From Chiloscyllium plagiosum (Eukaryota), in NCBI RefSeq assembly GCF_004010195.1, contig NC_057753.1:3379514-3443513 (forward strand): DNA of 64,000 nt. Direction: 5' to 3'. The notes beneath the pieces were generated by a model, which made no database searches, was not told where the DNA came from, and saw nothing but the letters and a program-made list of their open reading frames with translations. Below, one piece after another: positions 4,806-63,327 of the stretch; position 1 is the first letter of the stretch; each line of letters begins with the position of its first letter. The position numbers and the translations under genes are program-made.

Positions 4806-5716
4806 TCAACACTTTAAAAGTTTAAGAAACAATCTCTGCGGATATTTTAACCCATTCTTTAACTCGTCTCTGAATTTATTCTGGGTTCCTGCATAAATAA
4901 ATGGATTTATACAGGAACTCAGAAACTGAAGCATATACCCGGTTTCCTCCAGGATGAAGGATGAATTGCTATAATCTGAAACGGAGTAATAAGTAACTTT
5001 TGCAATTCGGACATAGAGTACTGTTACAAAAAATACCGAATAAAGCAGAATAGAACTACCTGAAATGCCAAAAAGTAAGATAATAGATTTTTTCCGTTTC
5101 TCCACCTCTGGGTCACTTTGATTCTCTCCATTGCTCAGGGTGCGGAGTCTCTTGCGGGCTCGGTTGGCCGCTAAAATATGTCTGACAGTCAGTGCATTGA
5201 GCAGTAAAATCAGAACAAATGGGAGGCAGGGGACGAGAATGGATCGAATCAAATCGTATGCAGCCCAGGCCTGTGAGGTAGTAAATACTAATTTTGGAAC
5301 ACAGAACCATGGAACATCATTAATTATGTACAGTGGTTCAAATGTAAAATAGAAAAACGCATTTTTGAAGCAGCTCAGCGTGCAGACTCCCCCTATAACC
5401 CATTTCGCTGTTACTTCTGTACAGTATTTTAGTTTCAGCTTCTGGCAACAAATGGCTATAAATCGGTCAAAGGTGAAAGCGACCGTTAACCAGGCAGAAC
5501 AATCTATAACTGAAGAAATAAAGACAACGCGGAGACTGCATATCGGTGTGATGGATAAGAAGCTGAATGGGAAATAAATGCCAGCATTCCGGTTTATAAT
5601 CACATTAACTATAATGACCAAAAGATCTACTAGCGCCATGGATACCACGTAGTAAATGATGCATGCGGAGAGACCACATCTTCTTCGCTGTAAGATTACG
5701 ATCACTGCCAAATTTG
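4806..5716 (-). CDS. GPR139/GPR142-like class A GPCR, paralog 1, exon 2 (spliced protein 326 aa)
   Basis: Hydrophobic TM segments, DLL in TM2, WLTVAFTFDRFIAIC in TM3, TM3/ECL2 cysteines (TPIC, PWFC), NPFIY in TM7. Acceptor ttctctctgttacag|CA at 5717/5716 gives in-frame P-A-N-L-A-V with exon 1. Confidence 0.95.
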
Positions 5717-7163
5717 CTGTAACAGAGAGAATAAAGATGGAATAGTGAGAATTATGCCCGAGAGAGCGAGAGCAATGAAGTCGTTAGTTCAAATTTCAAC
5801 AAAATTCTACTTTCCACAGAATTGTTGGAAAAAAGTCAGACGTGTGTAGTTCGTATTTCCATTGGGAAATATGCTTCATACCACGTTCAAGAGTTTAGAT
5901 TAAGCTTGGAGCAATCATCTTAATTGAAAGCATGTTATGCCAGTAAGAAGAAATATTAATAATATATGTACTAACGGAAAGAAAATCATATTGAAAACAC
6001 AGTAAAACATGTCGGGAAAATGATTGGAAGAATGTTATGTATGCACTGAGTGAGGTAAATGATAAAACAGCAACTATGTGTGTCAAGTCTGTCCAGAGAA
6101 TTGATTGCATATTGCTTACTTTAAAAGACAATGTTCAAAAGGTATGAACTACTGTAAAGCAGTTCTCTGTTGAAACTACGTGCAGATAACATCAACAAAA
6201 TTATCTAGAGGCATTGGGAATGGGATGACATTAAGATTTTTTCAGCTTTGAACAGAAAGCATTGATTAAGATACAACAGTACTTCTCATTAATTTAGCGG
6301 GAAGCGTCAATGCTAACCGAAACCACTGGACCTTTGCAGATGCCGAGTTCTCATTCGGAGAACATCTCTTACAACATTGCAGCTCTCAATGCTGTAGTTT
6401 ACAGTAACGAGAAATGAGCAATTCTGTGCCAAGGTAGATATTATCTTTGTGATGCTCACTCACTGGAGCCTTCCCATTAGCACTATAAGACAGCACACAT
6501 ATTGAGTTGATAGTGGTAAATGTACAAATTCTATCATTACAGGTATCTCACGAAAATTGATATACAACACACGTTGTCACTTGTGGAACAGTATACTCTA
6601 TGTAAATACATTTCACGTAGCTATGGCGAGGAGCTGGAATACATTAGTTCATGGAGGCAATGTTAAAAACTGAATAGAATGTTGTGCTGGTTACGGGGAG
6701 AAAGTGTGAGAAGAGCACGGAATGAATTGTTTATCTGCAGACCGGATAGACACAAGGCTGATCAAATGCCCTCCTTCAGCACTGCGCTATTTCTGAAATT
6801 TCATGAAGAGAAGGTACAGGGCAGCTATTAAGAAAACGTACAAGTTATTGTGGAAACATATCATGAAGAAACTCAACTAAGAATGAAGATAAATTATATT
6901 CGCAAAAGTGAGAACACAGATGTTCAGTAATGACCATGCCAACAAGGAAATTAATTATTCCATTAACGCGGAGAATATTCTAAAGGGTAGATCTTAAAAA
7001 TGCGACCTTCGGACAGGAGAACCTACCTCTCAAAAGAAACGACAGCTCTTTAAACTGGGGATGAAATAACCGCAACGGGAAAATGGGCTGTTAGTGATAA
7101 ACAAAGAGGGGTGATTCAACAAATCTACGAATCGTGCAATAATAAATGAGTACAAATCTTTAC

Positions 7164-7233
7164 CTGGTATCCCGATAGCCGCAAGCAAATTATAGTAAAT
7201 GGAAAACAGCAGACCTTTTGGTGATATGTGCAT
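7164..7233 (-). CDS. GPCR paralog 1, coding exon 1 (MHISPKGLLFSIYYNLLAAIGIP+G)
   Basis: ATG at 7233, 70 nt, donor CCAG|gtaaag. Phase-1 intron 5717-7163 (1447 bp). Same exon length and phase in all three paralogs. Confidence 0.92.
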
Positions 7234-7283
7234 TTCTATCAGAAGATTTAAGCACATTCAGCGTTATGTCATATTTTTCCACA

Positions 7284-7318
7284 TTTATACATGAGTCAGG
7301 CTCAAGAGATTTAATTAG
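7284..7318 (-). promoter_or_regulatory. Proximal promoter of paralog 1: TATA box, O/E-like site and homeodomain site
   Basis: Minus strand CTAATTA-AA-TCTCTTGAG (7318-7301) and TATAAA (7289-7284), 51 nt upstream of the ATG. Position conserved in paralogs 2 and 3. Confidence 0.7.
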
Positions 7319-7499
7319 ATGGTTGAAACGTTTACAGTAATCAGCATGGTTGTAAAAAAGAACAGATAAATGCAGCTGCAGTTGGGCGTGTTTAGATGGA
7401 TTCAAACTCGAATTGGAAATGTCTAGGGGCTGCTAAATGCTTTAACAATGTTCCTTTTTCAGGTTAATGCCCTGGGTTTTCATCTATTCCATCTATTAA

Positions 7500-7710
7500 A
7501 GCCATCTACACTTCTTACTGTCTCAGAAAGACAGCCAACATCATCAAAGAACCCTCCCACCCCGATTAGAATCTCTTCCAACCTCTTCCATCAGGCAGAA
7601 GATACAAAAGCTTAGATACGCGTACCAAAGCTTTCAAGAATAGCTTATTTGCTGCTGTTATTAAATTTCTGAATGGTCTTCTCAAATTCAAAACCAAACG
7701 TTGATCATTG
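7500..7710 (+). mobile_element. Rex1/Babar-like LINE 3' fragment
   Basis: Encodes ANIIKEPSHP...LFQPLPSGRRYKSL...FKNS, typical of the Rex1-type ORF2 C-terminus. Confidence 0.65.
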
Positions 7711-8839
7711 ATTGTCCTTGTACCTTCGCATTGTACATCCCATAGTTTCCAGATCATATGACTTTGGTACTGATCCAGCAGTCTCCTCTGTTGTGCACTT
7801 TGATGCATCATTCATCAAGATCTTATTGGATGGAAGAGTAGGTTCCAAGGGTTGGATGGCCGACTCCAACTTCCAGTTGATATATTCATGTATATGCTCT
7901 TATGTAAAGGCCCTTACAAACTCTCAGGTGTCAGCACAGCGATGACATATTTTCAGAAGGTTTGAGAATGAAAGAAGTGAGCCTTTCATCTCTGTCTTGC
8001 AATGTAGCCCCAAACGAGTCTTTGTGAAACAGATGCTCTTGTTTAAGAAGCTAATCGAAGAGGGAGCAAAGGAACGGTTGATTGATTGATTTATTGTCAC
8101 GTGTAACTTGTTGAAAAATGCAGTGAAAAGTATTGCGCACTGTCGCTGCTCTCTGGCATGAACCCGAAAAACAGGAAAATGAACCATAACGTCGAATATA
8201 AAGGTAGAAATCGCAAGCAATACGAAAAGGTTGGAACAAAGGTCACCACTCGCCGTACCATTTCGCCTCCACTGACGTCATATTGGTTTCACACTTGATT
8301 GGTTCGGAGAAAGCAATGGAGAAGGAAAGCAGTGCGGAGAATTCAGGAGCACTTGGTTTCGGCGGCAAATCATGAGTAGAAACTCAGCTCTGTCCTTCTT
8401 TTGCAGTTCGAGAGCATTTTCCAGTCTCGGCCTCTATCTTGGTTCAGCATGAGTCACAGTGCACATGCAGCCGCCTTCCTAACCCAGATCAGACTGTCTA
8501 TCTTGCACATCAATGTACATGCTTTCTAATGAATTTCCGAGATTTTATGATCTGCCTCTGGAACAGGTGGGATTTGATCTCGGGTCAAATCTGCTTAGTA
8601 GGAAGGACACTACTACAAGCGCTTTACTGCACATGAAATACCCTGTGTGTTAATTGGACTGCACATGGAGTAAGCAAGTATGAGCAATTGAAGTGGAAAT
8701 GAACTCAGAGTAGGGCATTCTGCCGTACATTATGCATTATTAACTCAGTTAGCATGTTACTATTACAGAATGAATAAGACAGTGCATGGATCAGTGGGAA
8801 GCAATGTTTGCCATCGACAAGGAGAAAAAAATAATAGGT

Positions 8840-8884: not shown

Positions 8885-9523
8885 CCGAGTGTTAATTTTT
8901 CCTGCTTTCCATTTTTTTTTCAAATTAACTCTGTGCTCAACAATAATCGGATGAGCTATGTAATAACGCAACGGGCAAAGGCATTTTCACGCATAACAAG
9001 TACGAAAATACAGAAATTGGAAACCAAGAGATAAGTAACATTTGCAATTCACACGTAATTTTAAAAATGCTGAATGAAATAACTTGAACCTGTCCGACAT
9101 AAGAAAGAGTCAAACAATGCAATATTTGCATTTCTTCAAAGCTGGATACCTTTAATTCTGAATTTTTCTGGGCCCAGAGTCTCGTACAGTCTTTATTGTG
9201 CATGAGAATATGACTGACCCTCAGAGCATTGAACAGCCAAATAAAAATAAATGACAGAGGATATGTTAACATTACGAGGATCCAGTTATATACAGCTCAT
9301 AATTGTGACTAATAATATATTGATTTCGTTTGACACAACAAGAGTATATTGTAATTCATAAAGAAGACTTGTCCAAAGTACGAGAGGATGTTTACAGCAC
9401 GATTCAATAAACAGGCAGTTTCTACTGTCACAGCTGTGGTTTTCTTGATATCATGCATCGTTTCTGGAAGCATATAGCTACTGAACAGTCAAAGGTGAAA
9501 ACAGTTACCACCAGAGAGAATAA

Positions 9524-11010
9524 TGGATGTAGGTTTGCTTGCTGAGCTGCAAGGTCCGTTTCCAGACGTTTCGTTACTCTACTAGCGAACATATTCAGTG
9601 GGCCTCAAACGAAGCAATGCTGAAACTTCCGGCTTTCCATTTGTATGTTTGGGTTTCACTGTGTTGTTGATGTAATTTCCTGTGGTGGTGTTATTTCATG
9701 AGGTGAAGTCACTTACTGTTCCTTTTCTCAGGGAGTGGTAGATGGGGTCTAATTCGATGTGCTTGTTGATAAAGTTCCAGTTGGAATGCCATGCTTATAG
9801 CAATTCTCGTGCATGTCTTTGTTTGGCATGTCCTAGGCTGGATATGTTGTCGCAGTCGAACCTCATCCGTATGTGAGGATACTAGTGAGAGTGGGTCACG
9901 TCTTTTTGTGGCTAGTTGATGTTCACATATCCTGGTGGCTAGTTTTCTGCATGCTTGTCCAATGTAGCGTTTGTTACAGTCATTCCACGGTATTTTGTAA
10001 GCGACATTAGTTTTGCTCGTTGTCTGTATAGCGTCTTTCAACTTCATTAGCTGCTCTTTTAGTATGTTGGTGGGTTTGTGGGCTACCATGATACCAAGGG
10101 TTCTGAGTAGTCTGGCAGTCAGTTTCGAGATGTCTTTGATGTAGGGGAGAGTGGCTAGGGTTTCTGGACGTGTTTTGTCTGCTTGTTTGTGTTTGCTGCT
10201 GAGAATTCAGGGGACTGTGTTCATTGGGTACCCATTCTTTTTGAATACACGGTATCGGTGATTTTTCTCTGCACTGCGTAGTTCCTCTGAGCTGCAGTGT
10301 GTATTGGCCCGTTGAAATAATGTTCTGATGCAGCTTCGTTTGTGGGTGCTGGGATGATAGCTTCTGTAGTTCAATATTTGGTCCGAATGTGTTGTTTTCC
10401 TGTAGATGCTGGTTTGAAGATCCCCGTTGGCTGTTCACGCTACTGTGAAATCTAGGAATGGTAGTTTGTTGTTGCTTTCCTCCTCTTTCGTGAATTTTAT
10501 GCCAGCAAGGGTATTATTGATGGTCTTGAAGGTTTCCTCTAAGTTGTTTCGTTTAGGATGGCAAAGGTGTCATCCACGTAGCATACACAAAGTTTGGGTT
10601 GGATGGTTGGCAGAACTGTTTGTTCAAGTCTCTGCATTACTGCCTCTGCTAAGAACCCTGATATCGGAGATCCCATGGGTGTTCCGTTTGTTTGTCTGTA
10701 GGTTTTGTTGTTGAAGTTGAAGTATGTGGTAAGGCATAGGTCCACTAGCTTGATGATACTGTCCTTGTTGATGAAGTTAGTGGTTTTTGGTGTATATATC
10801 TTTGGGTCTTCAAATATGTAGTCAGTGTTTCCTTGGCTAGTTTGATGTTGATTGATGTAAACAGGGATGTTACATCAAAGGAAACCACAATTTTATCCTC
10901 TTCTATCTTCGTGTCTTTGAAAGTCTTCAGGAATTCTTGGGTGGAGCGGAGTGAACCTTGCAGCTCAGCGAGCAAACCTACATCCGAAACCTAAACCTGA
11001 GCTTAGAACA
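9524..11010 (-). mobile_element. Penelope-like element (RT and GIY-YIG), decayed, with an inverted terminal segment
   Basis: SFDVTSLFT, GTPMGSPISG, YVDDTF and KRYIGQ..RKLATRI.EHQ motifs. 9526-9555 (gatgtaggtttgcttgctgagctgcaaggt) recurs as a reverse complement at about 10955-10985. Confidence 0.92.
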
Positions 11011-11209
11011 AAAAACAAACTACAGACTGAATTGAAGGAAAGAAAACTAAATGGAAGACAAACACACAGAATAAAGTTTACTATCACAGCTGCGAACATG
11101 CTGACGAGATCTGCCACCTCCATGGAGACTAAATAAATCGTCGCACATCTGGAGATGCCTTACATTCCCTGGGCCAGAATCATACGCACGGCAGAATTAG
11201 TTGCTTTAA

Positions 11210-11368: not shown

Positions 11369-11859
11369 GACAAATATATGAAGTTGGAGGAAAGATTACT
11401 GTAAGTTGTCACATTACTTACTAATTGCATTCAGCTTGTTCTGTTCAATATATAAAATCATTCTGATGCAGAAACGTATCTCTGAGAGTACAGCAGTTTA
11501 TCCAGTACTGTAAAGAACGGGCAGGAAATTTCAGGGTTTTGATACAGTTTGGTGATTTAGTTAGAGAAAATAAATTAATACTAGTCATATTCAACATGTA
11601 AAACCGAGTGGTCACATGAACATCCTGCGAATCTAAGGGACAGAGTTTGACACAAAGGTAGCAGATGATATTTCACGCACTTCAGTCAAAAAAGCTTCAC
11701 ATGGGGAGAACGATATCAGAAAAGGGCACTTGCATAAAGGGAAAGAAATTGTTTTGCATGGAATTCATGTGAGACGTAACTTGAGAAAATTATTTGATGC
11801 TGTTGGAAAATGGTGATGGCAACGAGTGAAACAAGTCATCTACATAATGTTTCCAGGTT

Positions 11860-13120
11860 TGATAAGGTGGCTAGTTCTGCCACGTATGAGTCAAAACATT
11901 GTCGTTTCAAGCAGTATTCTGGGACAGGAGTACTATGCTAATGCTTCAGGTGCATCTTTTCAGATAGATTGCTAAACTGAAGCAAAATCGAATTATAATG
12001 TGTATATAGAATTTGCACTAATTTAACGGAGAGCTGTTGTTCATTATCCAACACATTGACCAACATGCATATGGTTCAAAATTTAAGCAACGTGACAATG
12101 TGAATCTTGAGGAAATGGAGTCGCATTTCGTATGTGATGGTTTACTCAACAAACAGTATCAATACACAGTATTGCCACCTTGATACCATGACAGGGAATA
12201 ATAATACTCCCACAGTAAAAGTATGCATAACAGCAAGCAACTTAACTTACAGCATGCCACCACACGGTCAATGCATGTTACTGTGACAACATTAATATTA
12301 ATAAAGAAAACATTACTGTAGAGCCGTGAATTGTCTCTAACTGTGGCACACTCCGTGACTGTGGCAGTGTCCATATTTCTGAGCTGGCTGGCTCGGATTC
12401 ATAGTCATCAATGGTCCAGAGATTTGTAATAATATCTCTGAACTGGTTCATTGGTTAAAGGAACGTAGAACTAAATTTGCACATGATTTTGTCTGATATA
12501 CAGTGAACGCCATCAATAACAGATCAGAATTATATTTAAAGCGGGAGATGTTAGAAAGCAGTGGAAAACACCAAACGGACAGAGAACGTAGTTTTGGTGT
12601 TTTTATGTTAGCCTGTCGATAAGGAGAACAACATATACCTTGAATGTTAACAAACTGTCTTCCTCAAATTATTTTAATGCCACTTCGAGAAAGATGAAAT
12701 ATACAGCAGTAATGAAGACTCGTAATCCTAGTGAAGAATAAATATGATTAAATGATGGGTTGGAATTGATAGTTGGAAGAAATGATGATATTGAGTTGTG
12801 GGGGCATATCATATTCAATGTACAGAGACTTAGTTCAGAGAACTTACGTTTAGTTTTTCAAAAAATCCAATTTCATGTCCTGAGCTGACAAGATGGTATT
12901 CAGGACGATCATTTTCATTGTGCATAGATCCACCTGAAAATTGCCCTGTCAGTGTGGGATGCAACACAGCCTAAAGGTCAAGTTCAGTTTTAAATAACAA
13001 CAAAATTGACTGGAATTAATGTTCAGGAGCGGCAGCACCTATCACCATATATTATCTGACCTGCAGAGCATTTTTGCAATTTAGTAATTATTCTTGAATT
13101 TAAAGTCTCAAGCAATCTTC
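11860..13120. repeat. Duplicated non-coding block upstream of paralog 1; homologous to 51962-52920 and 54040-54312
   Basis: Colinear shared words, e.g. tgagtcaaaacattgtc, ttgctaaactgaagcaaa, aaggtcaagttcagttttaaataaca, tggaattaatgttca. Confidence 0.85.
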
Positions 13121-21413: not shown

Positions 21414-21655
21414 AATCTATGAGTGTGCCACTTAATCTATTCATCAATGCATAATATTGATAACCAGCAATAAATGTTTCTAATAATTAGAATCATTAAC
21501 TCGTAGAGTATTTAAATCCGTCCCATTGAACCCACTATTGAATCATAACAGGGGAGCCCCTACCTGTTGCCCTGCCAGATCATTACCCAAAAATAAGTGC
21601 AATCCCTCAATAGATAATGTATTCGCTACTCCAGCAATCATTTGTCCTGATAACA

Positions 21656-22486
21656 TTGTCCTGGTAATCATTAAAAACACGGAAATAGAAAAAACACACC
21701 GGATCATCAACGCCACACTCACAAGAATCCGATTCACGAGAGAAGAAGAAAAGGATAGAAAACTCCCATTTCTAGACGTGATGGTACAGAGAACACCAGA
21801 CGGAGAATTCACTACAGGAGTATACAGGAAAGCCACACACACAGACCAAGTCCTAAACTATGAAAGTAACCACCCCAACACACACAAACGAAGCTGCATC
21901 AGGACACTATTCAAAAGGGCCACAACACACTGCAGTACACCAGGACTGCAAGAAGACGTCGACCTGGACCCAATATACCAACCACTACAGCGGACAGCTG
22001 AAACTGACAATAAGGACTGCACAAAACACTATATAGGACAAACAGGAAGACAGCTAACAATCTGCATACATGAACATCAACTAGCCATGAAACGACACGA
22101 CCAGCTATCCTTAGTAGCCACACACGCAGACAACAAGCAACATGAATTCGACTGGGACAACACGACTATCATAGGGCAAGCCAGACAGAGAACAGCCAGG
22201 GAATTCCTAGAGGCATGGCATTCATCCACAAACTCCATCAACAAACACATCGACCTGGACCCAATATACCAACCACTACAGCGTACAGTTGAAACTGACA
22301 ACCGGAAGCGACAGGGACAGACCACTATAAACCCCGGAGGAGACATCAAAGAAGCGCTTCGCAGGAGGCTCTCAAGGCACTGATGATGTCGCCTAGCCAG
22401 GGGACGAAACGTTTGCAACAAAAACTTCCAGCTCGGCGAACAGAACCACAACAACGAGCACCCGAGCTACAAATCTTCGCACAAAC
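21656..22486 (+). mobile_element. Young, 5'-truncated, internally deleted Penelope-like element
   Basis: LPFLDV, VYRKATHTDQ and GIY-YIG (HYIGQTGRQL) motifs. 15-bp TSD tttgtcctgataaca at 21641-21655 and 22487-22501. Confidence 0.95.
22377..22416 (+). ncRNA. Minimal type I hammerhead ribozyme motif in the Penelope pseudo-LTR
   Basis: gca-CTGATGA-t-gtcgcct-agcc-aggggac-GAAAC-GTT-tgc: intact core, stem II with one mismatch, 3-bp stem I, palindromic ACGT stem III. Confidence 0.75.
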
Positions 22487-41029: not shown

Positions 41030-44000
41030 CCCCGCCACTTAAAAAGAATGAAATATTTATATCCAAAGTTGGCTTCATTTTTTAATCCAGTTAATTTTGC
41101 ATTTTTAGTACATAAACCTACACTCACATACATTGCATTGACTATACCATGGAAACTTTTACTATTGCATTCTGTTTCAGTCAGTTTACTCCTGCCACCG
41201 AATGCTTCCATTTCTGAACCAATTCTCAACAATTTGTCAGAGATCACGTTTTCTCGTTCTGCCACATGCACAATTGACAAATTGAATGGCTGTAACAACA
41301 AGATCTGTCTAAACAATCTGAATTTGTTGTCCACAAATTTATTTACAAAATTCATGGGCTAGGGTCAATGTGTATGACTGTCTCAGCTACGTTAATAATA
41401 ACACAAATAACTGGAATGTTGTCACGCCAACATCCAGCTCAAAGTCTCCTTCTAACAGTAGAATATTTCAGCTAACGAATGTTAAATTTCCTGGAGAAAT
41501 GCCCGAGAGGTCTTTCTATTTTCTCGTCATCTTCCTGCAAGAGCACAGCATCTATGCCTGCATTGCTTGCATCGATAGCCACCTTGAATGCCTTTGCGCA
41601 ATTACTGTGGCAAATAATGTGGCAGTGGTTAACACAGCTTTCAGCCTCTCAAATGCCTTCTGACAGTCAACTGCCTATTGAAATCTACTGCATTTCTTTT
41701 GCAATTCAGTGACTGGAGCAGCCACATTGCTACAATTTGGTACGAACTTCCGATATAATCCATTCAAACGTAAGAAGTTTATTACTGCTAGTTTTGTTGG
41801 TTATATGGAAAACTCTCCAATTACCTTTGTTTTGCATTCTGTGGGGCTATCTGACCATGTCCATTAAAATGGCTAAGGAAGGTGACTTGGGCTTTGAAAA
41901 ATCCGCTGTTACCCAGATTTATCACCAAGCCTGCCTCCTGAAATCAATCGGATCATTTGGATAAATGTCCCAAATGTTCTTTTCATGTGTCACTACAAAT
42001 TACCAGAATATCTTGACGATAATATAATTGGGCAGTCAGGCAACGAAATTATGATTAGCTTTTGAAATTCGACTCGCACATGATATTAAATTTATATAGT
42101 CCATTCGGTATTGTGAAGCCAAAATCGTCTTCACGCTTCTGTATAAAAGTACATTCAGCATCCTTCGAGCAAGTCCAACTTAGAAATATAAGTTCCTTGT
42201 CCCATCTTTTCAACACAGTCTTCCAAACGTAGAATTGAATATGCATCAATCTTTGTAACTGCATTAATTTTGCGGTAGTCCACACCGAACTGTTTGGCAC
42301 CATTTGATTTTGGCAACATTACAATGGGTGAGCTCCATTCTCTGTGACTCACTTCGATTACCTTGTCCTGGACCATGTGTTCAATCTCCTTTTTAATCTG
42401 TGCAACCTTTAGTGGGTTATGCATATAATGATGTTGCTTAATCGGAACAGCATCTCATTTATCTCTATCATGCATCAATAGGTTAGTACATCCCAGCTTA
42501 TTTCCACATATCCCTTCATGAAATAGCTCTTTCAGGTCATTTTGATGTTACTCTGGAAGTTAAAACAATAGTTAATTGCAATTTTTATAGCTTCTTCATT
42601 TTAAATTGAGTAATGTCGAGTTCAGAATCCTCTGAACTGTTTCTTCACTCTGTGTTGTATCCAATAACACATTCTCTTCTTGCGTTTTTCCCTAACAAAA
42701 TGCTTTTTGAGCATATTCACATGACACACTTTGTGAAATTTCTTTCACTGCAGAGTCTTTGTCAAATAGTTCACCTGATTCAATTTTCTTTCGACTTGAT
42801 AAGGTTCACTGAAACTTATTTTTGAAGGTCCACCGATCACTGGAAGTGACAGTAACACTATCTCTGACAGCAAAATTGCGAGGTTTTGATTTCTTGTTTG
42901 CTTCTTGTGCCATTATATGCCGTGATACTTTTAAATGCTGTCCAGCCAACTCCCCTGCTCTATTTAATCATTCTTTTTAATCTAACGCATATGTAGTCTC
43001 TGAATTCGGACTTCCAATTTTTCTTTAATAAATTTTGCGGCCTTCTCACTTTAGGCTCAAAGGTTAAATCCAATACACGAAATTTGGTCGATTCTTTTGG
43101 TGTATCATTGATCGCAAGAAGCACAAACGGAATTCTCTTATCTCCATCACCTGGATAGTGTTGACGATAGGCCCTCAACATGGACTTTAATGTCTGATGC
43201 CACTTTTCTAGAGCTCCCTTTTACTCTGAATGGTATGCAGTATATTTCATTTATTTCATTCCTCAGCTGTCCACAACTTCCTTGAATAATTTTGATGTCA
43301 AGATTGATCATTGAACTGATTGTACGTCTGTGGGTAATACATATCCAGTGAGAAGTTTCGGGACTTCCTCTGCAATCCTTTCAGCTTTGATTCGTGTAAT
43401 AGAATGGTCTCAGGTAATCTAGCGTACACATCCATTATTTGTAATGAATATTGATTCCAAATTCTTTTATGCAATTAATAAGACTTTTATATATGGTTCC
43501 TCACGCTCAGGGAGAGGCATTAAAGGTATAGTTTCAATTACTACATGTGGTTTTTCAATTTAGTGACATGTAAGACATGTCTGACAAAATTCAACTACAT
43601 CTTTGTGCAGGCCTGGTCAATAAAAATGTTTGTGGAAGTTTTCTTGAGTTTTCCTTACCCCTATATGGCCTCCTGCGAGTTGTTCATGTCTAACCTGTCA
43701 CACCGTCTTTCGTTCACCCACAGGCAATATGAGTTGATGAATTTCTGCTCATTTTTGATCTGCTTGAATCTATGATGGTCTCTTTCCCCTCATCAAAGTG
43801 TCATTTTTAAAGTACGAGCATTCATGGTTGAATTCTGAGTCTTCCTTCCTGTGTGCTTTCGAATACAATTTCCTTAAATTTTCATCTTACTGCTGTAACT
43901 CGGTTGATTTAGCTAAAGATTTCTACTTTGTCTGCCATTTGTTCCTGTTCTGTGTCAAGCATTTTATCAAATATGATCTCTGTTAATTCCACTTCAACTA

Positions 44001-46070
44001 TTTTATCTGCAATGTTTGAGTTGTCCTCTTTCAACTGGTGACTTTCTAACCTCATTACCCACATAGTCAAGGCAAATCGCAGTATATTAGTCTTTCAATA
44101 GTTCCTTTGCCTGAGTTTCTACTAGCATTTCAGTCACAGGACTCCGACCTGTGAAACAGTTATAACATTGAGTGCTTTTTGACACAACGGGTATTCCAGG
44201 TATTAACACCTTTTCTAGTAATAGTCCTTCCCATGCACATATCTCCTCAAATTTCAAATTCAAAGATTGAGATGATCTTGTATCTGTTAAATTTGTAACC
44301 TGCATATCTGCTGCTCCTGTCCTATGCGAGTAAACTTTACCTTTGCAGTTATGTGGTTTACAAAGATCTGGCACTTCCTCCTTAAGCAACCCCAGAACAG
44401 GTTTGACATTTCGGGCTTCCATTGTGTTTTCTGTTATCAGAAATTCACTGGCCTAACCTCTTTTCCTATATCTGGTTTCCAAGTGATTTATCTGAGCCAC
44501 CAACACTGCGATTTTACGTGGCTTGAGTTATTCCAGTGAAAATACCGGAGCTTTCTAACCTCTCTTTCCCCTTCCATGGTTTCGTTTTCATCCTGCGCTG
44601 TTATCCTAATGATTTTCATCGAGATCTACCACTCCCTTACCACGTGAGGATTTCTCTTTCCCCAGTTTCTGTCCTTCACGGGTTGAACCTGATGTTGGAA
44701 GCCAAACTTTGATTAATGAACCCAATTCATAATCAAACCCATGTTGTCTTGCTGATTTAACTCTCTGCTCTTCCACATGACTTCTCAGTACCTCAGAAAG
44801 TGAATGCGTGAATTCTTCCAAATTAAGCGTCACAGATTTGCTCCGCCTTTAATGCCATTATCCACCTAACAACATTACTCTGTTTTATCCTTTCAGACTC
44901 AATGTATATTTGACCAGGGTTGCCCCTTAAATTCCTGCAACTTTGTATGGAAGCTCCTGGAACAGGCGCATATGCACTTGAGATGTTCACTTCACGTTCT
45001 CATACGCCATAGATCCCCCCTCTGATAGTGATGTGAAAACCATGCGAGCTGTACCTACGAGTATTGATTACATCAACAAAGCCTGCATGGTGACTGGACC
45101 AAGGATTTGTTTCGTCAGCTTTTCAAATGAGTTGAAAAGGTCTCCATGTCCTTTTCATCAAACTGAGGCAATGCTTGAATTTATTTAACGGGTTCTGTCC
45201 ACCTCTTTGGCGAGCATATGTTTGCTCATGCTCACTCTCTTCCTCACTAAGCTTACCTTCAGCCTTCATCTGCATCGTTTTAATTTGACTTACCTGTCTC
45301 CGTGCCAACTTCTGCAGTTCAAACTCTATTTCTTTCTTCATTTTCTCTCTCTCTTCTCTATTTCTTTCTTTTGGTCTGCTAAAGCGATTCGTTCTTTTTC
45401 TCTTTCCTGTGCTAAAGTCTTCCCTTCCTTTCAGCTAAAAACCTCCCCATTTCTTTATCTTCTAAAATAGCTGTTCTTTACTTTTCTTTTATCTTCTAAC
45501 TTCTGCTGCCTCACTTGAAATTTAGACCTTTCTAACTCCATAGTTACCTTACATTTTCAGTTTTGATTTTGCCCCTGGTTAAATCCAATTCTAAGCTTAT
45601 TGTTACATCAGAAGGTATATCCTTTTTCTGTCCTTCTAAACTTTCTATGCGAATTTGGGCAGCATCTCCAAACCCCAAAATCTCTTGAGCAATGTTAAGA
45701 GCCATTTCAAAACTAAATTCCAATGGCCTTTCAGGCACACTTACATGTTGTGCTATTTCAGTAATAACCACAAAGACTCTCGGTGACACCGGAGATTTCA
45801 GTTCCAGCTTGATTGCTGATTCCCGCAGTTTTGCCTTGTTCACCTTTTGTAAAATCCTCCAAAGTCATTTCTTCCACACCAGAAAACTCTTCGTGACTGA
45901 AAGAGTCACTGCTGTCCAAACCCATGTTTAAATGAACGGAAATCAACACTTCGAACCAAAGACACTAACAGCCACGACTCACTACCTTCCAGTCCACCCA
46001 CGCCAATCCCAAATCTATGAGTATCTTAAATATCACGGTATTATGTTCACACCACAAGAAATGGCCCCCA
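41030..46070 (-). mobile_element. Decayed Gmr1-type Gypsy internal region: gag, PR, INT, RT, RNase H
   Basis: In transcription order: Gag PQFDEKD (about 45165), decayed CCHC knuckle (about 44520), protease-like LTDTRSSQS (about 44285), integrase IPFVLLAINDTPKEST (about 43120), RT WSSPIV/VDYRKIN/SKLDLL (42160-42420), RNase H LLLQPFNLSIVHVA.RENV (about 41270). Confidence 0.9.
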
Positions 46071-48994: not shown

Positions 48995-49875
48995 CTATGG
49001 ATATTTTAATCCATCCTTTAACTCGTCTCTGAATTTATTTTGGATCCCCGCATAAATGAACGGATTTATGCAGGAACTCAGAAACTGAAGCATATACCCG
49101 GTTTCCTCCAGGATAAAGGATGACTTACTATAGTCAGAAACTGAGTAATAAGTAACTTTTGCAATTCGGACATAGAGCACTGTTGTAAAATATACTGAAT
49201 ACAACAGAACAAAACTCCCTGAAATGCCGAAGAGCAAGATAATGGACTTTTTCCGTTTTTCCATCTCTGTATCACTCTGATTCTCTCCACTGCTCAGGGT
49301 ATGGAGTCTCCTGCGGGCTCGATTGGCCGCTAAAATATGTCTGACTGTCAGAGCATTGAGCAGCAAAATCAGAATGAATGGAAGGCTAGGGACGAGAATG
49401 GAACGAATCAAATCATATGCTGCCCAGGCCTGTAAGGTACTAAATACTAATTTTGGAACACAGAACCAGGGTACGTTATTAATTGTGTACAGTGGTTCAG
49501 ATATAAAATATAAAAACGCATTTTTAAAGCAACTCAGTGTGCAGACGCCCCCTATTACACACTTTGCTGTTAGTTCAGTACAGTATTTCAGTTTCAGCTT
49601 CTGGCAACAAATGGTCACAAATCGATCAAAGGTGAAAGTGACCGTTAACCAGGCAGAACTATCTATTACTGAATATACAAGGAAAACACGGAGAATGCAT
49701 ATTGGTGTGATGGATAAGAAGCTGAATGGGAAATAAATACTAGCAGTCCGGTTTATAACCACTTTAAAAAAGATGACCAAGAGATCTGCTCCAGCCATGG
49801 ATACCACGTAGTAAATGATACATCCAGAAAGACCACATTTTCTTCTGCATAGTATTATGATCACTGCCAAGTTAG
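48995..49875 (-). CDS. GPR139/GPR142-like GPCR, paralog 2, exon 2 (spliced protein 316 aa; 10 C-terminal codons lost)
   Basis: Close paralog of 4806-5716 with DRF and NPFIY. Acceptor ttctctcggttacag|CT at 49876/49875. TAG where paralog 1 has CAG. Confidence 0.93.
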
Positions 49876-51109: not shown

Positions 51110-51179
51110 CTGGTATCCCAATAGCTGCAAGAAAATTATAATACATGGAAAACAACAGGCCTTTTGGTGAGATGTGCAT
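51110..51179 (-). CDS. GPCR paralog 2, coding exon 1 (MHISPKGLLFSMYYNFLAAIGIP+G)
   Basis: ATG at 51179, 70 nt, donor CCAG|gtaaag. Intron 49876-51109 (1234 bp). Not reported by the ORF track. Confidence 0.92.
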
Positions 51180-51229: not shown

Positions 51230-51264
51230 TTTATACGTGAGATGGGCTCAAGGGATTCAATTAG
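51230..51264 (-). promoter_or_regulatory. Proximal promoter of paralog 2: TATA box, O/E-like site and homeodomain site
   Basis: Minus strand CTAATTG-AA-TCCCTTGAG (51264-51247) and TATAAA (51235-51230), 51 nt upstream of the ATG. Confidence 0.72.
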
Positions 51265-51945: not shown

Positions 51946-53070
51946 GCATTTTCAGCTTTTATTAGGTGGGTAGCTCTGCCACTTTTGAGTCAAAACATTG
52001 TCATTTCAAGCGCCATTTCAAGACAGGAGGACTATTGTAATGCTTGAGGTGTTCAGATAGGTTGCTAAACTGAAGCAAAGTCGAAATACAATGCGTGTAT
52101 ATAATCTGCATCAATTCAACGGAAAGCTGTTGCTCATATTCCAGCGCAATGAACAACATGTATACAGGGCAAAATTTAAGCAATACAATAATGAACATCT
52201 TGAAAAATGGAGCTGCATTTGGTGCATGTAGGTTTACACAACAAACAGCATCAATACGCAGTGCCGTTAAGTTTATATCATGGCACGGAATGATAATATT
52301 CCCGCAGTAAGGGCATCCATAATACAAATCAACTTAATTTGCAGTATGCCACTGCATGGCAAAGCGTGTTACTATGATGACTTAAGTAATATGCAAGAAA
52401 ACGTTTATTGTAGCGCAGTTCTGTAATCTCTGACTCTGGCACACAACCATTAACGGTTCTAGTGTCCAAACCTCTGGGCCAGGAGGCTCGGATTCAACCT
52501 CCTTATTGCTATTGAGGTTTGTAATACTATCTATGAACAGATTGCTTAGTAAATAGAATCACGAACTGAATTTACAACATGATTTTGAATGAAACTATCT
52601 GTACTCTGGAAGCATCAGTTACAGATCAGACTTGTATTTAAAGTATGAGATGTTAGCAAGCAGTGAAAAATACCAATTTCAGAGAGGAGATGGCTGTGGA
52701 GTTTTCGTGTCCACTATCAATCAAGAGAACTATGTATACCTTGAATGTGAAGATTCTGTGCCTCTCAAGACATTTTAATGTTACTTCAAGAAAGGTGAAA
52801 TACATAACAGTAATGAAGTTCATTATGCCAGTGAAGAATAAATGTAATTAAATGGAGGGTCAAAATGGATAGTTTGAAAAAAATCATGGTCTTCGTGGGT
52901 GGGGAAATCATGCCTGTTAAAGAGTTTAAAAAGTTTGTTCTAGTTAATAGACAAGTGATCGACTTAAATGTCGAAATGACATCGCCACCATCGATATGTA
53001 CTCGATGAAAATGCGAAAATGAAGGCAACGCAATTATTCCCATAATTAGCAATTGGCTAAGAATCTGTAT

Positions 53071-53139
53071 GTGGAAGCTCGATTGTTGGAAGAAAGGAAT
53101 AGTAAATGACAAACACTAAACTTTTGGTAATGAATGCAT
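53071..53139 (-). pseudogene. Orphan, inactivated exon 1 of a fourth GPCR paralog (MHSLPK/LVFVIYYSFLPTIELP)
   Basis: ATG CAT TCA TTA CCA AAA G-T TTA GTG TTT GTC ATT TAC TAT ... CTT CCA C aligns with the 70-nt exons, with a 1-bp deletion (69 nt). Donor G|GTA is now C|ATA. Upstream context gctcaaaacattgaccagaaATG resembles paralog 3 gctcagaacatctgtcagaaATG. Confidence 0.85.
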
Positions 53140-55049
53140 TTCTGGTCAATGTTTTGAGCATGTCCTTCATTATGTTCACGGATGGTGACGTTTTCTCTTC
53201 ATGTATTTCTTCATGGAGAAAATTAATTGATTTTGCTCGCGACATCAATGACACGAATGGAAAGGGGGAAGAGTAACAAAAAGTATTTTTTTCCAATATG
53301 ATAAAAAGCTGGTCACACTGTTCTCTTGTTCACCTAAAACAAATCGTTCAATTACAAACAGAAGATTTAGTGTGGACGTCAAAATTGGAATCGAAGAATT
53401 ATTACATTTAGCTCCTCAACGGTGAATTCAATGATGATTGCACAATTTGCAATTGAGAATGAATATACTGATTAAATAAATTGATAAACTTCAGATTTAA
53501 TTGGCACTTATAAGCACGTTCATACGTTTTTCTGCATTTTGTTTGCAAAGATATCCAGTTCAGTAATGTTACAAGTCGTCCTCGAATGTGAAATTCTGCT
53601 TAGGTTTGGCATGAGTTAGTGCAGTCCAGATTATTTATCTTCTGTGTGTACGGGTTCATATGATGGTGGATACCTTCGCAATGGAAATGTTCATTCCTGC
53701 ATAACTGCACCAAATTCCAATTCAGCATGATTAAATTCTGCGATGGCAGCGAAAATCACTACTGCCAGAGTTAATAATGATTAAAATGAAACAAGCTTAG
53801 TTTGATTTTCTTAAAAGTCTTGCTCAATGTCATTAATTACAGTGCAGCAATACCCGCTACAACACTATAATAATCAATGTAAACATGTTCAGATCAGCGC
53901 AGGTACGATTATGGTCAATGTAACCAACGTAGAAGATATTAATTTAGTATTACCAAGTCAACTACAGTACATGACTATATTTAGTGACAACATGTACCGG
54001 TTAAATTGTCACATGAAAAGTGCATAGATTTAGTTCAGTGTCCTTGAATGTTGTCTAATATATTCCATTTTCATGAGCTGAGCTGACACGATGTTATTCA
54101 GCACGATTTTTTCCAGTGTAGAAAGATTTACGGCAAATATTTCCTGTCAGTGTGGGGTACAGCTCAGAATCAAGGTCAAGTTCAGTTTTAAATAACAGCA
54201 ACATCAGCTGGAATTAATGTTCAAGGTCATCAGCACCAATTGCCATATGTTGTCAGACCTGATGAGCATTTTCATAAGTTAACATTCTTCATTTTAAAAG
54301 TCTTAAACCATCTATACTCTGTGTTATCTGTTCATTTGTACAGGCATAGTTCAGCACATATTAAGTCATAATGTATACAGTTAGATGAACAGAGCACTTC
54401 ACAGTTTATACAGATCAAGTTATGTAATGTTTGATTTGACGTGGTTTTCTCTTCCGTCTGCTCTGCATGTATTGCGAAAACCTTCAGTTCATTCACTTCC
54501 CACCTCAGTGGTTGGCTGTTCAGTTATTCTTTGACAGTTCTGGATGCCTGGTCTTCATACTTTAATATTCACCAAAGATATTTGAACACTCTGCTCTTGA
54601 ATACACAAGCAAACGCATTGCTTTCAACGTGTTGCTTTGAATACAAATCAAATAAATTTCATTGCTCATCACATTCGTAAATTTATATTTTCAAGTCATC
54701 AACGTCTGCTTTAATTGCACTTCATCCATCATATAAATCTGTTTCCAAGTGTCATAGCCATGTCTGCATTTTGTGGTATGTGTGCATTTAAGTTGTTGCA
54801 GTTCTAATCCTTCAATTTATCTGACATCTGCATCAGCGTCCTTCTATGCATATAACACCTTAACTTCAAGATTCCTCCCTCCTCACGCCATTATTTCTTG
54901 ATCTTTGTACTTTCCAAATGTTTCCCAATTTTGAATGCATTCGTCTGGCCATAGACCACATCCCATTATTCACTGTAACTGTTACCTCCAGACGTACTTG
55001 CACCACAGATATCAGTTTTCTGCAAATTGGATTTCGTCTGTGAGATCAA

Positions 55050-60105: not shown

Positions 60106-60687
60106 TATTTGAGCAGCTGCTAGGGCAGTGAAAGATTACTGTGCCTATTATTTGAAAGACAATGGCAACATCAGCTACGCACAGTGTCAGAATGATGGCA
60201 GGACTCTTTAATCGTCAGCATGACTAAAGGTACAGCTACTGATTCAGAAGTCTGTGAGTATTCAACATAACTTCCACAACTTATACCGTTCTGGATAAAG
60301 GTGCGGTACTGATGGCCAAACTTGCACCTATGTTTCTGATTTGAGAAAGAATTACAAATAAGCAACAATGGCTGTAGTTGTTTGCAACAGTCTCCAAATA
60401 GGAAAAAATGAACAAAAATAATCCCAAACAATTCCGACTGAGTACCCACTGTCAATCCCACTTTAGTCATCAACATTCTGGACATATCCTGAATAAGCAG
60501 GGGAAGGACAATTAGAAATCAACTGAAAACAAATTACCACACGTGCTTTTATAGCCTTGCAACATTCTTCGTACATTTCAGAATTTAACACGAAGGCAAT
60601 GTCTGAAAAAGCTCTCATGTGTAGCTGTGTGTAGAGAGCAGGATATGCTGCCCTAAAGCATACAAATGATTCTGGGTCATCCTCTTA

Positions 60688-61574
60688 TCAATACTTAAAC
60701 ATTTTAATAAATAGGTTCAAAGTAAATTTCTTTAATTCATCTCTAATTTTGTTCTGCGTTACAGCATATATAAATGGGTTGATGCAGGAACTCAATAACT
60801 GGAGCATATATCCAGTTTGTTGCAAATAAAATGTGGATCCTGAGGAATAAGTAACATTCGCAATTCGAACGTAGAGAATGTTTACAAAAAATAACATATA
60901 TAGTAGAATGAAAGTGCCTGAGATGGAGAAGAGTAAAATAATGGACTTTCTCCGTTTCTCCATCTCTGGGTCACGCTGAGTCTCTACAATTTTCTGAAGC
61001 TGGAGTCTCTTACGGGCTCTGTTGGCCAAGACAATGCGTCTCACAGTCAGTGCATTTAGTATTAAAATTAGAACAAAAGGGAGGCATGGATTTAAAATAG
61101 AACGGATCCAGTCATATGCAACCCAAGCAGGTGATGTATAACATACATCCTTTATGCTGCACAGCCAGGGTGTATTGTTGATTACGTATCTGGGTTCAAA
61201 TTCAAAATATATGAAAATATTTTTTATACCGCACAGAGTAGACACAACTCCTATCATCCACGCTGCCACCTTCCTGGTGCAATATTTTACTTTCAGGTTG
61301 TGGCAAGATATAGCCACAAATCGATCAAAAGTAAAAGCGACAGTTAACCAGGCGGAATTGTCAATAACTGCCAGATTTAATGCAGCACGAAAACTGCACA
61401 CTGGTGTGATAGAAAGGAAACTGGATGGGAAATAAATCCCAACAATGCGATTTAAAATCACAGCTGTGACCATGACCAGGAGATCTGTTGCTGCCATTGC
61501 CACCAAGTAGTAAGTGATGCAGCTCGAGAGACCACAGGTTCTTCGAGATAGGATTGCAATCACTGCTAGATTAG
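60688..61574 (-). CDS. GPR139/GPR142-like GPCR, paralog 3, exon 2 (spliced protein 318 aa)
   Basis: LVAMAATDLL, WLTVAFTFDRFVAISC, PCLPF, NPFIY. Acceptor tctttctttcttccag|CT at 61575/61574. Confidence 0.95.
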
Positions 61575-63159
61575 CTGGAAGAAAGAAAGACAGCGAGTTA
61601 CAATTGGACCATTTCTCCTTTTGATTACAATCAGGTTTCTCATATTACTGAAGTTTTCAGAAGTTTCAAGAGTTTAGAAGGAAACTATAACTTGGACATC
61701 ATTCCTTATTTTGTGGAATAATTGATTTTTAAATTAAACATTGAAACGAGGAAACCAAATTATTGACGCCACAGGAATACTATATAAAAATCTTTGCAGA
61801 CAGCTACATATCACCCACCAACAATTCACCACTTCATTTAGTTGAGTCCCATTCAAAGGCAAGAATAAATTTTAAAAATGGATTTAATATATTACAAGCA
61901 TAAGAAATACCGAAGTAAAGCAAATCATCCCAACAAAGAGAATACGTTGAAAGAGGCAATCTACAATGCACGGACAGTACAGTGGAAACTGACAATAGCA
62001 TGAATTTAGTCCAATTTTATTTCAATAAATTCATGTAATTCTTTTCACTGTTGGAAAAGCAGACATGAAACCTTCGAATATTACATTGGAAATAAAGTGG
62101 AAACATGCAACCCTCCAACTTCACAGAATTCACTCTGGGATTGATTCGATGACCGAGCTGTTCATGTGAGAATGACCTCTCATTTGTGGTGTCGATGGAA
62201 AGCATAGAAACTGGCTGGTGATGAGAAGTTTTTTCGGGGAAAGACCTTCCTGCAGTGCAGCACTTCATCAGTGGTTCATTGCACCGTCAGGGTAAATAAC
62301 GACTCATTTCTCATTTGCATTTTAAAAATTAAACCTTGCAAATGCAATACCAGAAATGCCAAAAAGTGTAGAGATTCATTCCATTTTAGAAGAACAACAA
62401 AACTAGAAACAGTTTAAGCTCATATCGAAAGTCGGTATTAGCTGGAAACCCCACATCAGCAATCATCACATTAGAACAATCAGAAACAGTTAATGTAGAG
62501 TGAACGTGCAGCGTTGAAACTGCGAGCACTAGCGACTGAAAACAAAAACAAATGCGCTCTGTGCATTAGTGGCAAATCCCCATCTTCGGTTAAAGGAGAA
62601 ATACAATGTTGTTATATATCTTTGAACATTTCGAATTCTAATTATTCCCCTTCTTTGAAATTAGTCATTAAATGCAGATGGAAATTGGTCAACAGTTCAA
62701 ACTACTGAAGCAATAATGCATTCATGCAGATTTTCCCTTTCATTCAAAGAAAATTGCACGATCAATCCAAATATATGATGGGATATTTGTGGAAATAAAC
62801 TTCGCAAAGAAAAATTAAAATGTGATGATAAAGAGAAAATTGTCTAAATAATGCTGCGATGGATCTACTGTTACAGGATAATAACTGCTTAGTGATTTAC
62901 CAAGTAACATGTTGCCAATAATGCAGCTGAATTGGATCGACTTTACAACTTATTTCTTCTATTAAAGCGTTGACACATCAGAAATGTATTACAACATGTA
63001 TCCGCCTTCACGGAGCACATCACAACGTTGAAGCCAACTGTTATGGCATATTGAATTGGAGAAACAATATTTATTGCTACCGGCCTCGTGATACTGGTGA
63101 AACTGGAGAACTGACGCAGCTAAACAGTATCTCTATGTGAGGAACTCTCAACATTTTAC

Positions 63160-63229
63160 CTGGAAGACCAATATCTGCAAGGACTGGATAATAAATGGCA
63201 AAGACCAAACCTCTTGGTATCTCATGCAT
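63160..63229 (-). CDS. GPCR paralog 3, coding exon 1 (MHEIPRGLVFAIYYPVLADIGLP+G)
   Basis: ATG at 63229, 70 nt, donor CCAG|gtaaaa. Intron 61575-63159 (1585 bp). Confidence 0.92.
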
Positions 63230-63280
63230 TTCTGACAGATGTTCTGAGCACCGTCCATGAATCATCGAAACATGACTACA

Positions 63281-63327
63281 TTTATACATGGTTGCATATG
63301 CATTTCAGACTTCAGGGAGTTAATTAG
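63281..63327 (-). promoter_or_regulatory. Proximal promoter of paralog 3: TATA box, O/E site and homeodomain site
   Basis: Minus strand CTAATTA-AC-TCCCTGAAG (63327-63310) and TATAAA (63286-63281), 52 nt upstream of the ATG. Plus-strand CTTCAGGGA matches YYYCARRRR exactly. Confidence 0.72.

What the first reader, a model, noticed from the sequence alone, without database searches (positions are those of the whole stretch)
4806..63327. Tandem cluster of GPR139-like GPCRs: candidate uncharacterised chemoreceptor repertoire in a cartilaginous fish
Seen: three intact, co-oriented paralogs with identical two-exon structure, very short N-termini lacking an N-glycosylation sequon, a dead fourth exon 1, only transposon debris between them, and a shared promoter. 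Established: mammalian GPR139 and GPR142 are single-copy receptors activated by aromatic amino acids. Amino acids are major fish odorants, and cartilaginous fishes have very few classical OR genes. Inference: clustered birth-and-death evolution plus olfactory-type promoter motifs suggests an expanded sensory receptor family separate from OR/TAAR/V1R/V2R. Function cannot be shown from sequence alone.
Basis: partly seen in the sequence, partly recalled or inferred. Interest (0 to 1): 0.9.

Follow-up and report, generated by a model that had tools for sequence, protein, structure and literature searches.

The report
Huge unstudied shark receptor gene family
The three genes are real and belong to a family of hundreds of cell-surface receptor genes in this shark genome, distant cousins of GPR139, whose conserved smell-gene-like promoters suggest an overlooked chemical-sensing repertoire, although where they are switched on could not be shown.

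Summary
Confirmed, and far larger than the window. Three two-exon class A GPCR genes are intact and under purifying selection (dN/dS 0.17-0.20). One family motif has 1,643 exact matches genome-wide (control 1). Two capped searches give 241 distinct loci, 212 without a stop. My rough estimate is several hundred to about 1,000 intact genes. They are not GPR139: a separate true GPR139 exists, a joint clade is rejected (p=0.00016), and 0 of 5 Trp/Phe-pocket residues are kept. They share GPR139's intron. Members were seen in sharks and rays; the sister gene looks single-copy in amphibians and sturgeon. Homeodomain, O/E-like and forkhead-like promoter modules occur in 24 of 36 promoters against 4 of 215 control windows. 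One young subfamily has loops with dN/dS 1.5. Best reading (0.55): an undescribed chemosensory repertoire; immune sensing is the main rival. No expression evidence was obtained. Eight paper searches found no description, and this scan had not found it before.

The parts
4806..5716 (-). Gene A exon 2 (TM1 C-half to stop)
   Evidence: Pfam 7tm_1 E 1.6e-18
7164..7233 (-). Gene A coding exon 1 (70 nt, ATG to phase-1 donor GTAAAG)
7284..7289 (-). Gene A TATA box, 56 nt before ATG
7300..7317 (-). Gene A homeodomain site next to O/E-like site
   Evidence: conserved in clade alignment
8982..9520 (-).
   Evidence: nhmmer E 1.2e-43; tblastn with stops
11002..11201 (-). Exon-2 pseudogene, 5' piece; separated from the 3' piece by a ~1.5 kb insertion
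   Evidence: nhmmer E 2.8e-19
11850..13118 (-). Flank shared with 51949-54313: A and B lie in duplicated two-gene units; here exon 1 of the upstream copy is deleted
   Evidence: self-BLAST 73%; inference from block order
48995..49875 (-). Gene B exon 2; early TAG, 10 residues shorter than A
51110..51179 (-). Gene B coding exon 1
51230..51263 (-). Gene B promoter: homeodomain + O/E-like site (51263-51246) and TATA (51235-51230)
53072..53254 (-). Dead exon 1 (ATG at 53139) with decayed promoter; frame break, donor lost, no exon 2 downstream
   Evidence: nhmmer E 7e-17
60688..61574 (-). Gene C exon 2
63160..63229 (-). Gene C coding exon 1
63281..63327 (-). Gene C promoter: TAATT site and O/E-like site (aligned in the clade, but misses my one-mismatch pattern) and TATA (63286-63281)

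Best explanation
The genes are members of a very large elasmobranch radiation of class A GPCRs that most likely serves as a chemical-sensing repertoire in sensory cells, the olfactory epithelium first of all. SHOWN: a 7TM class A fold; descent from a GPR139-related but separate lineage; hundreds of intact copies in clusters on many contigs, with many pseudogenes; purifying selection on the core; fast change in the outer loops of the youngest subfamily; a compact promoter kept across distant subfamilies. INFERRED: Lhx2/Emx2-type homeodomain factors, EBF (O/E) factors and a forkhead-like factor bind these promoters and switch genes on in olfactory-type neurons, one or a few genes per cell. Each receptor would bind a different water-borne ligand, probably peptides or small polar molecules given the peptide-receptor ancestry and the loop-centred variation, and would signal through a shared G protein, since the inner face is conserved. 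Ligands, cell type and G protein are unknown.
For: Size: 1,643 exact matches of one TM3 motif against 1 control; 241 distinct near-full-length loci from two capped searches, 212 without a stop; at least 150 exon-1 copies of one further subfamily (cap reached). Published shark olfactory repertoires are about 10-50 genes despite large olfactory organs (PMC10116579, Discussion). Birth and death: 27 intact, 36 broken, 12 gapped of 75. Selection: dN/dS 0.14-0.25 in all region classes of the window's clade (7 pairs); in the young subfamily 1.51 for ECL2+ECL3 (95% bootstrap 1.16-2.01 by pairs, 1.09-2.37 by codons) against 0.37 elsewhere (11 disjoint pairs); 19 of the 20 most variable columns are in the outer part, which is 37% of columns. 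Promoter: with patterns fixed before the loci were viewed, homeodomain+O/E-like in 6 of 19 new upstream windows against 4 of 195 control windows (shuffle mean 0.65, maximum 2 in 100), and forkhead-like in 6 of 19 against 10 of 195. Either module in 24 of 36 promoters against 4 of 215 windows downstream of the donor. The single-copy sister gene has neither within 300 nt of its ATG (1 gene). The young subfamily also carries CTTTTAATGA, the last ten letters of the J-element homeodomain site quoted in PMC7804114. O/E and homeodomain motifs are required in mouse OR promoters (PMC12547500).
Against: No expression evidence. In one search, no read or contig joins exon 1 to exon 2 of gene A in three RNA or RNA-like runs (X5 and X6 sampled at about 2% and 6%, X7 whole; tissues unknown); X6 laid nothing at all. 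Homeodomain and EBF sites are short and are used in many other cells (own knowledge: B cells, other neurons). My O/E and homeodomain patterns are recalled, and were shaped on the first promoters I saw; the forkhead-homeodomain pattern was written after seeing the data. Promoters are related by descent, so 24 of 36 is not 36 independent tests. I could not compare spacing with the mouse composite logo (figure not held), and in mouse the composite marks enhancers, not promoters. In catshark all olfactory neurons are reported as microvillous, and ciliated OR-type neurons as absent. The window's own clade shows no excess of change in the loops (0.25 against 0.23). The three-loop value named in advance was 1.25 with an interval that includes 1 (0.87-1.71); ECL2+ECL3 was picked afterwards.
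Confidence: 0.55

Rival explanations
1. Immune or barrier sensing repertoire: receptors on leukocytes or epithelia that detect microbial or parasite peptides, comparable in role to formyl-peptide or MAS-related receptors.
For: Fast change is in the extracellular loops, not the deep pocket (TM outer halves 0.37, ECL2 1.67), as in arms races. The young subfamily has long, repeated, N-glycosylatable N-termini. EBF and forkhead factors also act in lymphocytes (own knowledge). MAS1-type receptors are reported absent from cartilaginous fishes (PMC8455134 passage).
Against: A homeodomain site directly beside an O/E-like site, plus TATA, is the OR-type combination. The window's clade is under even purifying selection and is shared by distant sharks.
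Confidence: 0.2
2. Sensory or neuronal receptors outside the nose: solitary chemosensory cells, taste buds, lateral line, electroreceptors, somatosensory neurons, or neuronal identity codes in the brain.
For: GPR139 itself is a brain receptor (PMC12208981 passages). The sister gene was found in amphibians and sturgeon, and in no amniote or teleost among 25 hits, which fits an aquatic sensory role of some kind.
Against: No data; the promoter modules point more directly to olfactory-type cells.
Confidence: 0.12
3. Mostly passive amplification: a modest set of working receptors was multiplied by segmental duplication, and most copies are silent or redundant.
For: 36 of 63 decidable sampled loci are broken. 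The young subfamily was copied with more than 9 kb of intron at about 80% identity. No transcript was seen. Unplaced contigs may add allelic duplicates.
Against: dN/dS of 0.17-0.20 among the window's genes and 0.37 in the core of the young subfamily. Promoter islands are kept while the DNA between them diverged. Many deep subfamilies are shared across sharks and rays.
Confidence: 0.1
4. Multiplied GPR139 orthologues that sense aromatic amino acids.
For: Automatic database names; shared intron; GPR139 is the top fold match, by a tiny margin.
Against: A true GPR139 exists separately (L140). Identity to it is only 20-22%. A joint clade is rejected, p-AU 0.00016. 0 of 5 pocket residues are kept.
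Confidence: 0.03

Closest known systems
GPR139 (PDB 7vug; GPR142 not examined)
   Same: Class A 7TM fold; top Foldseek match (E 6.6e-10, 22% identity); profile score 51.6 bits, level with TRHR at 53.1; the same phase-1 intron just before the TM1 Asn; one supported group in the tree (98/95).
   Different: Separate lineage: two amphioxus proteins and other vertebrate subtypes branch between them (AU test). Pocket F109/H187/W241/R244/N271 reads S/R/Y/F/Y in gene A. The family has the TM3 and ECL2 cysteines, where shark GPR139 has Asp at the TM3 position. One GPR139 motif match in this genome against hundreds of copies.
GPR139-related orphan subtypes of coelacanth, gar and fishes (named GPR210A/B in PMC6504862, passage seen)
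   Same: Nearest named non-elasmobranch relatives include Latimeria, Odontesthes and Engraulis proteins, with the same intron in their orthologues here.
   Different: This genome has its own orthologues of two such subtypes (64% and 48%) outside the expansion. I did not check whether they are the paper's GPR210A/B. The paper's text has no occurrence of 'shark' or 'cartilaginous'.
Unstudied amphibian/sturgeon gene auto-named 'probable GPR139' (e.g. XP_069092602.1, Pleurodeles)
   Same: Sister to the whole elasmobranch family (100/99).
   Different: Looks single-copy and conserved: about one cluster per species, 66-74% across 19 further amphibian clusters and 46% in sturgeon.
Vertebrate olfactory receptor repertoires (OR, TAAR, V1R/ORA, V2R/OlfC)
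   Same: Works-like resemblance only: large clustered family, many pseudogenes, variable outer face, homeodomain + O/E promoter sites.
   Different: No OR, V1R, T2R or class C Pfam match; other ancestry; coding intron; olfactory expression not shown.

Membership tests
Class A (rhodopsin-like) GPCR | 7tm_1 domain and seven-helix fold with a DRY-like motif | tested here: met
   Pfam above cut-off for 3 of 3. AlphaFold model of the 84%-identical homologue P0001: pLDDT 87, seven long helices plus helix 8. DRF motif. TM7 reads NPFIY in this clade and NTxIY in many others.
GPR139 orthologues | One clade with GPR139 | tested here: not met
   p-AU 0.00016; true GPR139 found elsewhere in the genome
GPR139 orthologues | Trp/Phe pocket F109, H187, W241, R244, N271 (PMC5430874) | tested here: not met
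   0 of 5 identical in A, B and C by alignment A4; W241 is kept in other subfamilies
GPR139 orthologues | Activation by Trp or Phe | not testable with these tools
   needs a cell assay
GPR139-related group in the wide sense | Shared phase-1 intron before the TM1 Asn | tested here: met
   9 of 9 loci examined, including GPR139 and three sister genes
GPR139-related group in the wide sense | Groups with GPR139 against TRHR and invertebrate peptide-receptor-like proteins | tested here: met
   98/95 in the careful tree. Caveats: GPR139 is a long branch; outgroups were 3 partial TRHR-like and 2 unnamed proteins; GPR142 was not included.
OR, V1R, T2R, V2R | Family-specific Pfam domain | tested here: not met
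   only 7tm_1 at E up to 0.01
TAAR | Closest to aminergic receptors | tested here: inconclusive
   No TAAR among the 60 best of 203 PDB matches, and peptide receptors rank above aminergic ones; no TAAR was put in the tree
Olfactory receptor repertoire (functional class) | Large clustered family with birth-and-death evolution | tested here: met
Olfactory receptor repertoire (functional class) | Homeodomain and O/E sites in the proximal promoter | tested here: met
   enriched over controls; patterns recalled, binding not shown
Olfactory receptor repertoire (functional class) | Sparse expression in olfactory sensory neurons | not testable with these tools
   one read lay on runs of unknown tissue gave no usable answer
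Olfactory receptor repertoire (functional class) | Activation by odorants | not testable with these tools
   needs an assay

The most novel reading that the evidence does not exclude
Sharks and rays built their main smell repertoire from a fifth receptor family: a GPR139-related peptide-receptor lineage that independently acquired an Lhx2/EBF-type promoter and grew to several hundred or about a thousand genes. That would be ten or more times the published shark repertoire and as large as the mouse OR family. The accepted view that cartilaginous fishes smell with 10-50 receptors would then come from searching only the four known families.
Probability: 0.45. Interest if true: 0.95.

Novelty: new variant of a known kind. 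Interest (0 to 1): 0.82.

Why it matters
Cartilaginous fishes have large olfactory organs but only about 10-50 known olfactory receptor genes, which has been explained as a trade of discrimination for sensitivity (PMC10116579). They are also described as poor in GPCRs (PMC8455134). A family of hundreds of intact GPCRs sitting under an automatic 'probable GPR139' label contradicts the second statement outright. It makes the first directly testable with RNA-seq data that probably already exist. If the family is olfactory, it is an independent origin of a vertebrate smell-receptor family with convergent gene control. If it is immune, it is a very large unrecognised innate receptor family. The apparently single-copy Xenopus sister gene offers an easy experimental entry.

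Tried and rejected
Single-sequence search of gene A exon 2 against the PDB found nothing at E 0.001; only a profile reached GPR139 and TRHR. No RNA holder was listed for gene A. Laying X5, X6, X7 and X1 on 3300-8800 at 80% likeness gave no exon1-exon2 joint. X5 has short partial reads of paralogues near 5185-5500 (about 15-17 reads, strand not interpretable, tissue unknown), which I do not count as evidence. X1 covers intron and flanks evenly and behaves as DNA; its very high summed depth at the TM3 motif is not a copy number, and I do not use it. Exon 1 of the young subfamily was not found within about 9 kb (11 loci) or about 19 kb (5 of those) upstream. I first considered exon-2-only copies, then rejected that when a direct search found at least 150 exon-1 copies; one exon 1 lies about 21 kb from an exon 2 in the same orientation. 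The exon-1 finder failed on 26 of the 52 loci (3 had no usable motif), so promoter sets hold only loci where exon 1 lay in range. In one search, at least four of the 19 'short' loci were really long-N-terminus genes scored in the wrong window and three windows held N runs; they were left in. For one search, short-set loci without an ATG or with a long N-terminus were dropped. No chimaera protein appeared in the 240 listed hits, but this was not a direct test. GPR142 was not found by the GPR139 motif. The catshark paper's supplement could not be read. The bioRxiv supplements of the Squalomix tandem-cluster survey are closed and may list this family unnamed. Pfam named only 1 of 10 spacer frames. 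No complex prediction was run, because no binding claim is made.
Full report
1. Observation. The window holds three long seven-helix reading frames on the - strand. Each has a 70-nt first coding exon, a phase-1 GT..AG intron of 1.2-1.6 kb and one long second exon, giving 326, 316 and 318 residues at 62-85% identity, with no sequon before TM1. Gene B stops 10 residues early. Pairwise dN/dS is 0.17-0.20. A DNA profile of promoter plus exon 1 finds exactly four places, the fourth being the dead exon at 53139. Self-comparison shows A and B inside duplicated blocks at 73-78% identity. From the block order I infer that a two-gene unit was duplicated, and that the upstream gene lost exon 1 in one copy and exon 2 in the other. 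The splice was not confirmed by RNA.

2. Size of the family. Gene A exon 2 against the own genome (3.56 Gb) returned 130 scored matches, all 60% or more identical, from 8,119 first-look candidates. A divergent member returned 122. Together these are 241 distinct loci, 212 full-length with no stop, 87 of them on the window's contig between 1.5 and 13 Mb. A TM3 motif has 1,643 exact matches against 1 for the reversed control, and a TM7 motif of the window's clade has 135 against 3. I fetched 75 of the first 100 listed TM3 matches (contigs C4-C8, so not a random sample): 27 had an intact exon 2, 36 were broken and 12 held assembly gaps. Applying 27 of 63 to 1,643 gives about 700. The motif is present in only 15 of 26 and 18 of 28 intact loci of other clades, which pushes the number up. 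Allelic duplicates on unplaced contigs push it down, and assembly errors may inflate the broken share. Several hundred to about 1,000 intact genes is my estimate, not a count.

3. Range and descent. The best 120 of 1,753 database hits to gene A are shark proteins (one has no name), mostly auto-named 'probable G-protein coupled receptor 139'. Skates and rays have members too; no chimaera was seen. A profile search of 50% representatives (names looked up for 20 of 150) led to salamander, coelacanth, teleost and amphioxus relatives. The own genome has separate genes for GPR139 (L140), for the coelacanth-type subtype (64%) and for the anchovy-type subtype (48%). In a careful tree of 37 rows rooted on three TRHR-like exons, GPR139, amphioxus, the sister subtypes and the family group at 98/95. 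The family plus an amphibian/sturgeon gene group at 100/99, and the family alone at 92/81 (a 75-row quick tree agrees). A clade of family plus GPR139 is rejected (p-AU 0.00016). All nine loci examined share the intron before the TM1 Asn. The amphibian gene has 19 further amphibian clusters at 66-74%, one sturgeon hit at 46%, and no amniote or teleost among 25 hits (this search needs shared words and can miss relatives). So this is an old jawed-vertebrate gene that seems to have stayed single in amphibians and radiated in elasmobranchs.

4. Protein anatomy. Pfam gives only 7tm_1. The model of an 84%-identical whale-shark homologue is a confident 7TM bundle with an ECL2 hairpin. Its best fold match is GPR139, barely ahead of peptide receptors. 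The five GPR139 residues named for Trp/Phe recognition (PMC5430874, passages) read S, R, Y, F, Y in gene A, and none is identical in B or C. In the window's clade, selection is purifying everywhere (0.14-0.25, 7 pairs). In a young, widely dispersed subfamily (23 intact exons, 11 disjoint pairs), 19 of the 20 most variable columns face outward. There, dN/dS over the three outer loops is 1.25 (0.87-1.71), and over ECL2+ECL3, chosen afterwards, 1.51 (1.16-2.01) against 0.37 for the rest.

5. Promoter. In 12 promoters of the window's clade, the conserved upstream islands are TAATT, an O/E-like site three bases later, and TATAA. Other clades carry TTGTTCA followed 11-12 bases later by TAAT, about 145-165 nt before the ATG. 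With patterns fixed before viewing 30 new loci, the 19 scored as short-N-terminus genes showed homeodomain+O/E in 6 (4 of 195 control windows; shuffles at most 2) and the forkhead-like word in 6 (10 of 195). Over 36 promoters, 24 have one of the two modules, against 4 of 215 windows downstream of the donor; the single-copy sister gene has neither. The young subfamily has the forkhead-like word, two homeodomain/O/E-like pairs and CTTTTAATGA, which matches the end of the J-element site AAACTTTTAATGA (PMC7804114, passages). Mouse OR promoters need O/E and homeodomain sites, while the side-by-side composite is typical of OR enhancers (PMC12547500 and PMC5608512, passages). The factor names are recalled labels, the promoters share ancestry, and binding is not shown. 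What is shown is long-term conservation of a compact module.

6. Mechanism and rivals. The combination of a very large clustered family, pseudogenes, a conserved inner face with a variable outer face, and OR-type promoter words is best explained by a chemosensory repertoire (0.55). An immune or barrier repertoire (0.2), other sensory or neuronal use (0.12), passive amplification (0.1) and multiplied amino-acid-sensing GPR139 (0.03) follow. The decisive datum, tissue expression, is missing. No RNA holder was listed, and the one read lay showed no spliced read in runs of unknown tissue. Catshark olfactory neurons are reported to be all microvillous (PMC10116579, abstract and first part of the Discussion), so an OR-like control system would have to work in that cell type.

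7. What is in print. Searches listed no paper on this expansion; 'gpr139' with 'shark' occurs in 4 papers, seen as listings only, none on this by title or abstract start. Passages read: PMC10620051 (no GPCR terms); PMC11979771 (no GPR term; supplement unreadable); bioRxiv 10.1101/2025.06.08.657570 (tandem survey names V2R and SUCNR1, labels only clusters with clear outside homologues; supplements closed); PMC8455134 (speaks of GPCR paucity); PMC6368271 (repertoire table); PMC6504862 (GPR210A/B, no sharks); PMC12208981 (no sharks). The library lacks most subscription papers, so a description elsewhere is possible. The proteins are in public annotations under automatic names. This scan's earlier notes hold nothing on the family.

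8. Verdict. A real and apparently undescribed receptor radiation of mammalian-OR scale in an animal group thought to lack one. It is GPR139-related but not GPR139. Its function is open, with a chemosensory role somewhat more likely than not. Novelty: new variant of a known kind. Interest 0.82.

Noticed in passing
L181-L210 (e.g. G000:C8:12258604-12258780): A very large young subfamily has exon 1 made of a variable number of roughly 13-residue repeats with NV(T/S) sequons: a repeat-built, glycosylatable N-terminus on a class A GPCR. Its ECL2 and ECL3 are hypervariable.
   Followed up: partly
G000:C8, 0.3-89 Mb: This contig carries family copies dispersed along most of its length (about 73 of the first 100 motif matches lie in its first 40 Mb), unlike the tight clusters on small contigs C37 and C44-C49.
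   Followed up: partly
L031/L244 (G000:C26:36.60 Mb), L032 (C98156), L045 (C27:2.29 Mb): Three further GPR139-related orphan genes outside the expansion, with the same intron; two have clear bony-vertebrate orthologues.
   Followed up: partly
P0219 and P0295-P0314: A conserved, apparently single-copy sister gene in frogs, salamanders, a caecilian and sturgeon; no amniote or teleost hit; no study found.
   Followed up: partly
G000:C21:59220998-59221894 and L140 (C21:58.73 Mb): One family member lies about 0.5 Mb from the true GPR139 gene; chance or a relic of origin, not examined.
   Followed up: no
window 9530-11000, 21487-22380, 32321-33469: Retroelement pieces. The first two match each other and resemble Penelope-like elements (recalled; Pfam gave no name). 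The first splits the exon-2 pseudogene. The third is flanked by a 149-nt inverted repeat at 91%.
   Followed up: no
window 40930-45864: Decayed frames that resemble an LTR retrotransposon gag/pol region (recalled; Pfam found nothing in five frames tested).
   Followed up: no
L241-L243: Three TRH-receptor-like genes in this genome, used as outgroup only.
   Followed up: no
window 4879-4923 (+): The TM7 coding stretch of gene A also matches the family profile on the opposite strand (E 3e-5); probably a near-palindromic codon run.
   Followed up: no
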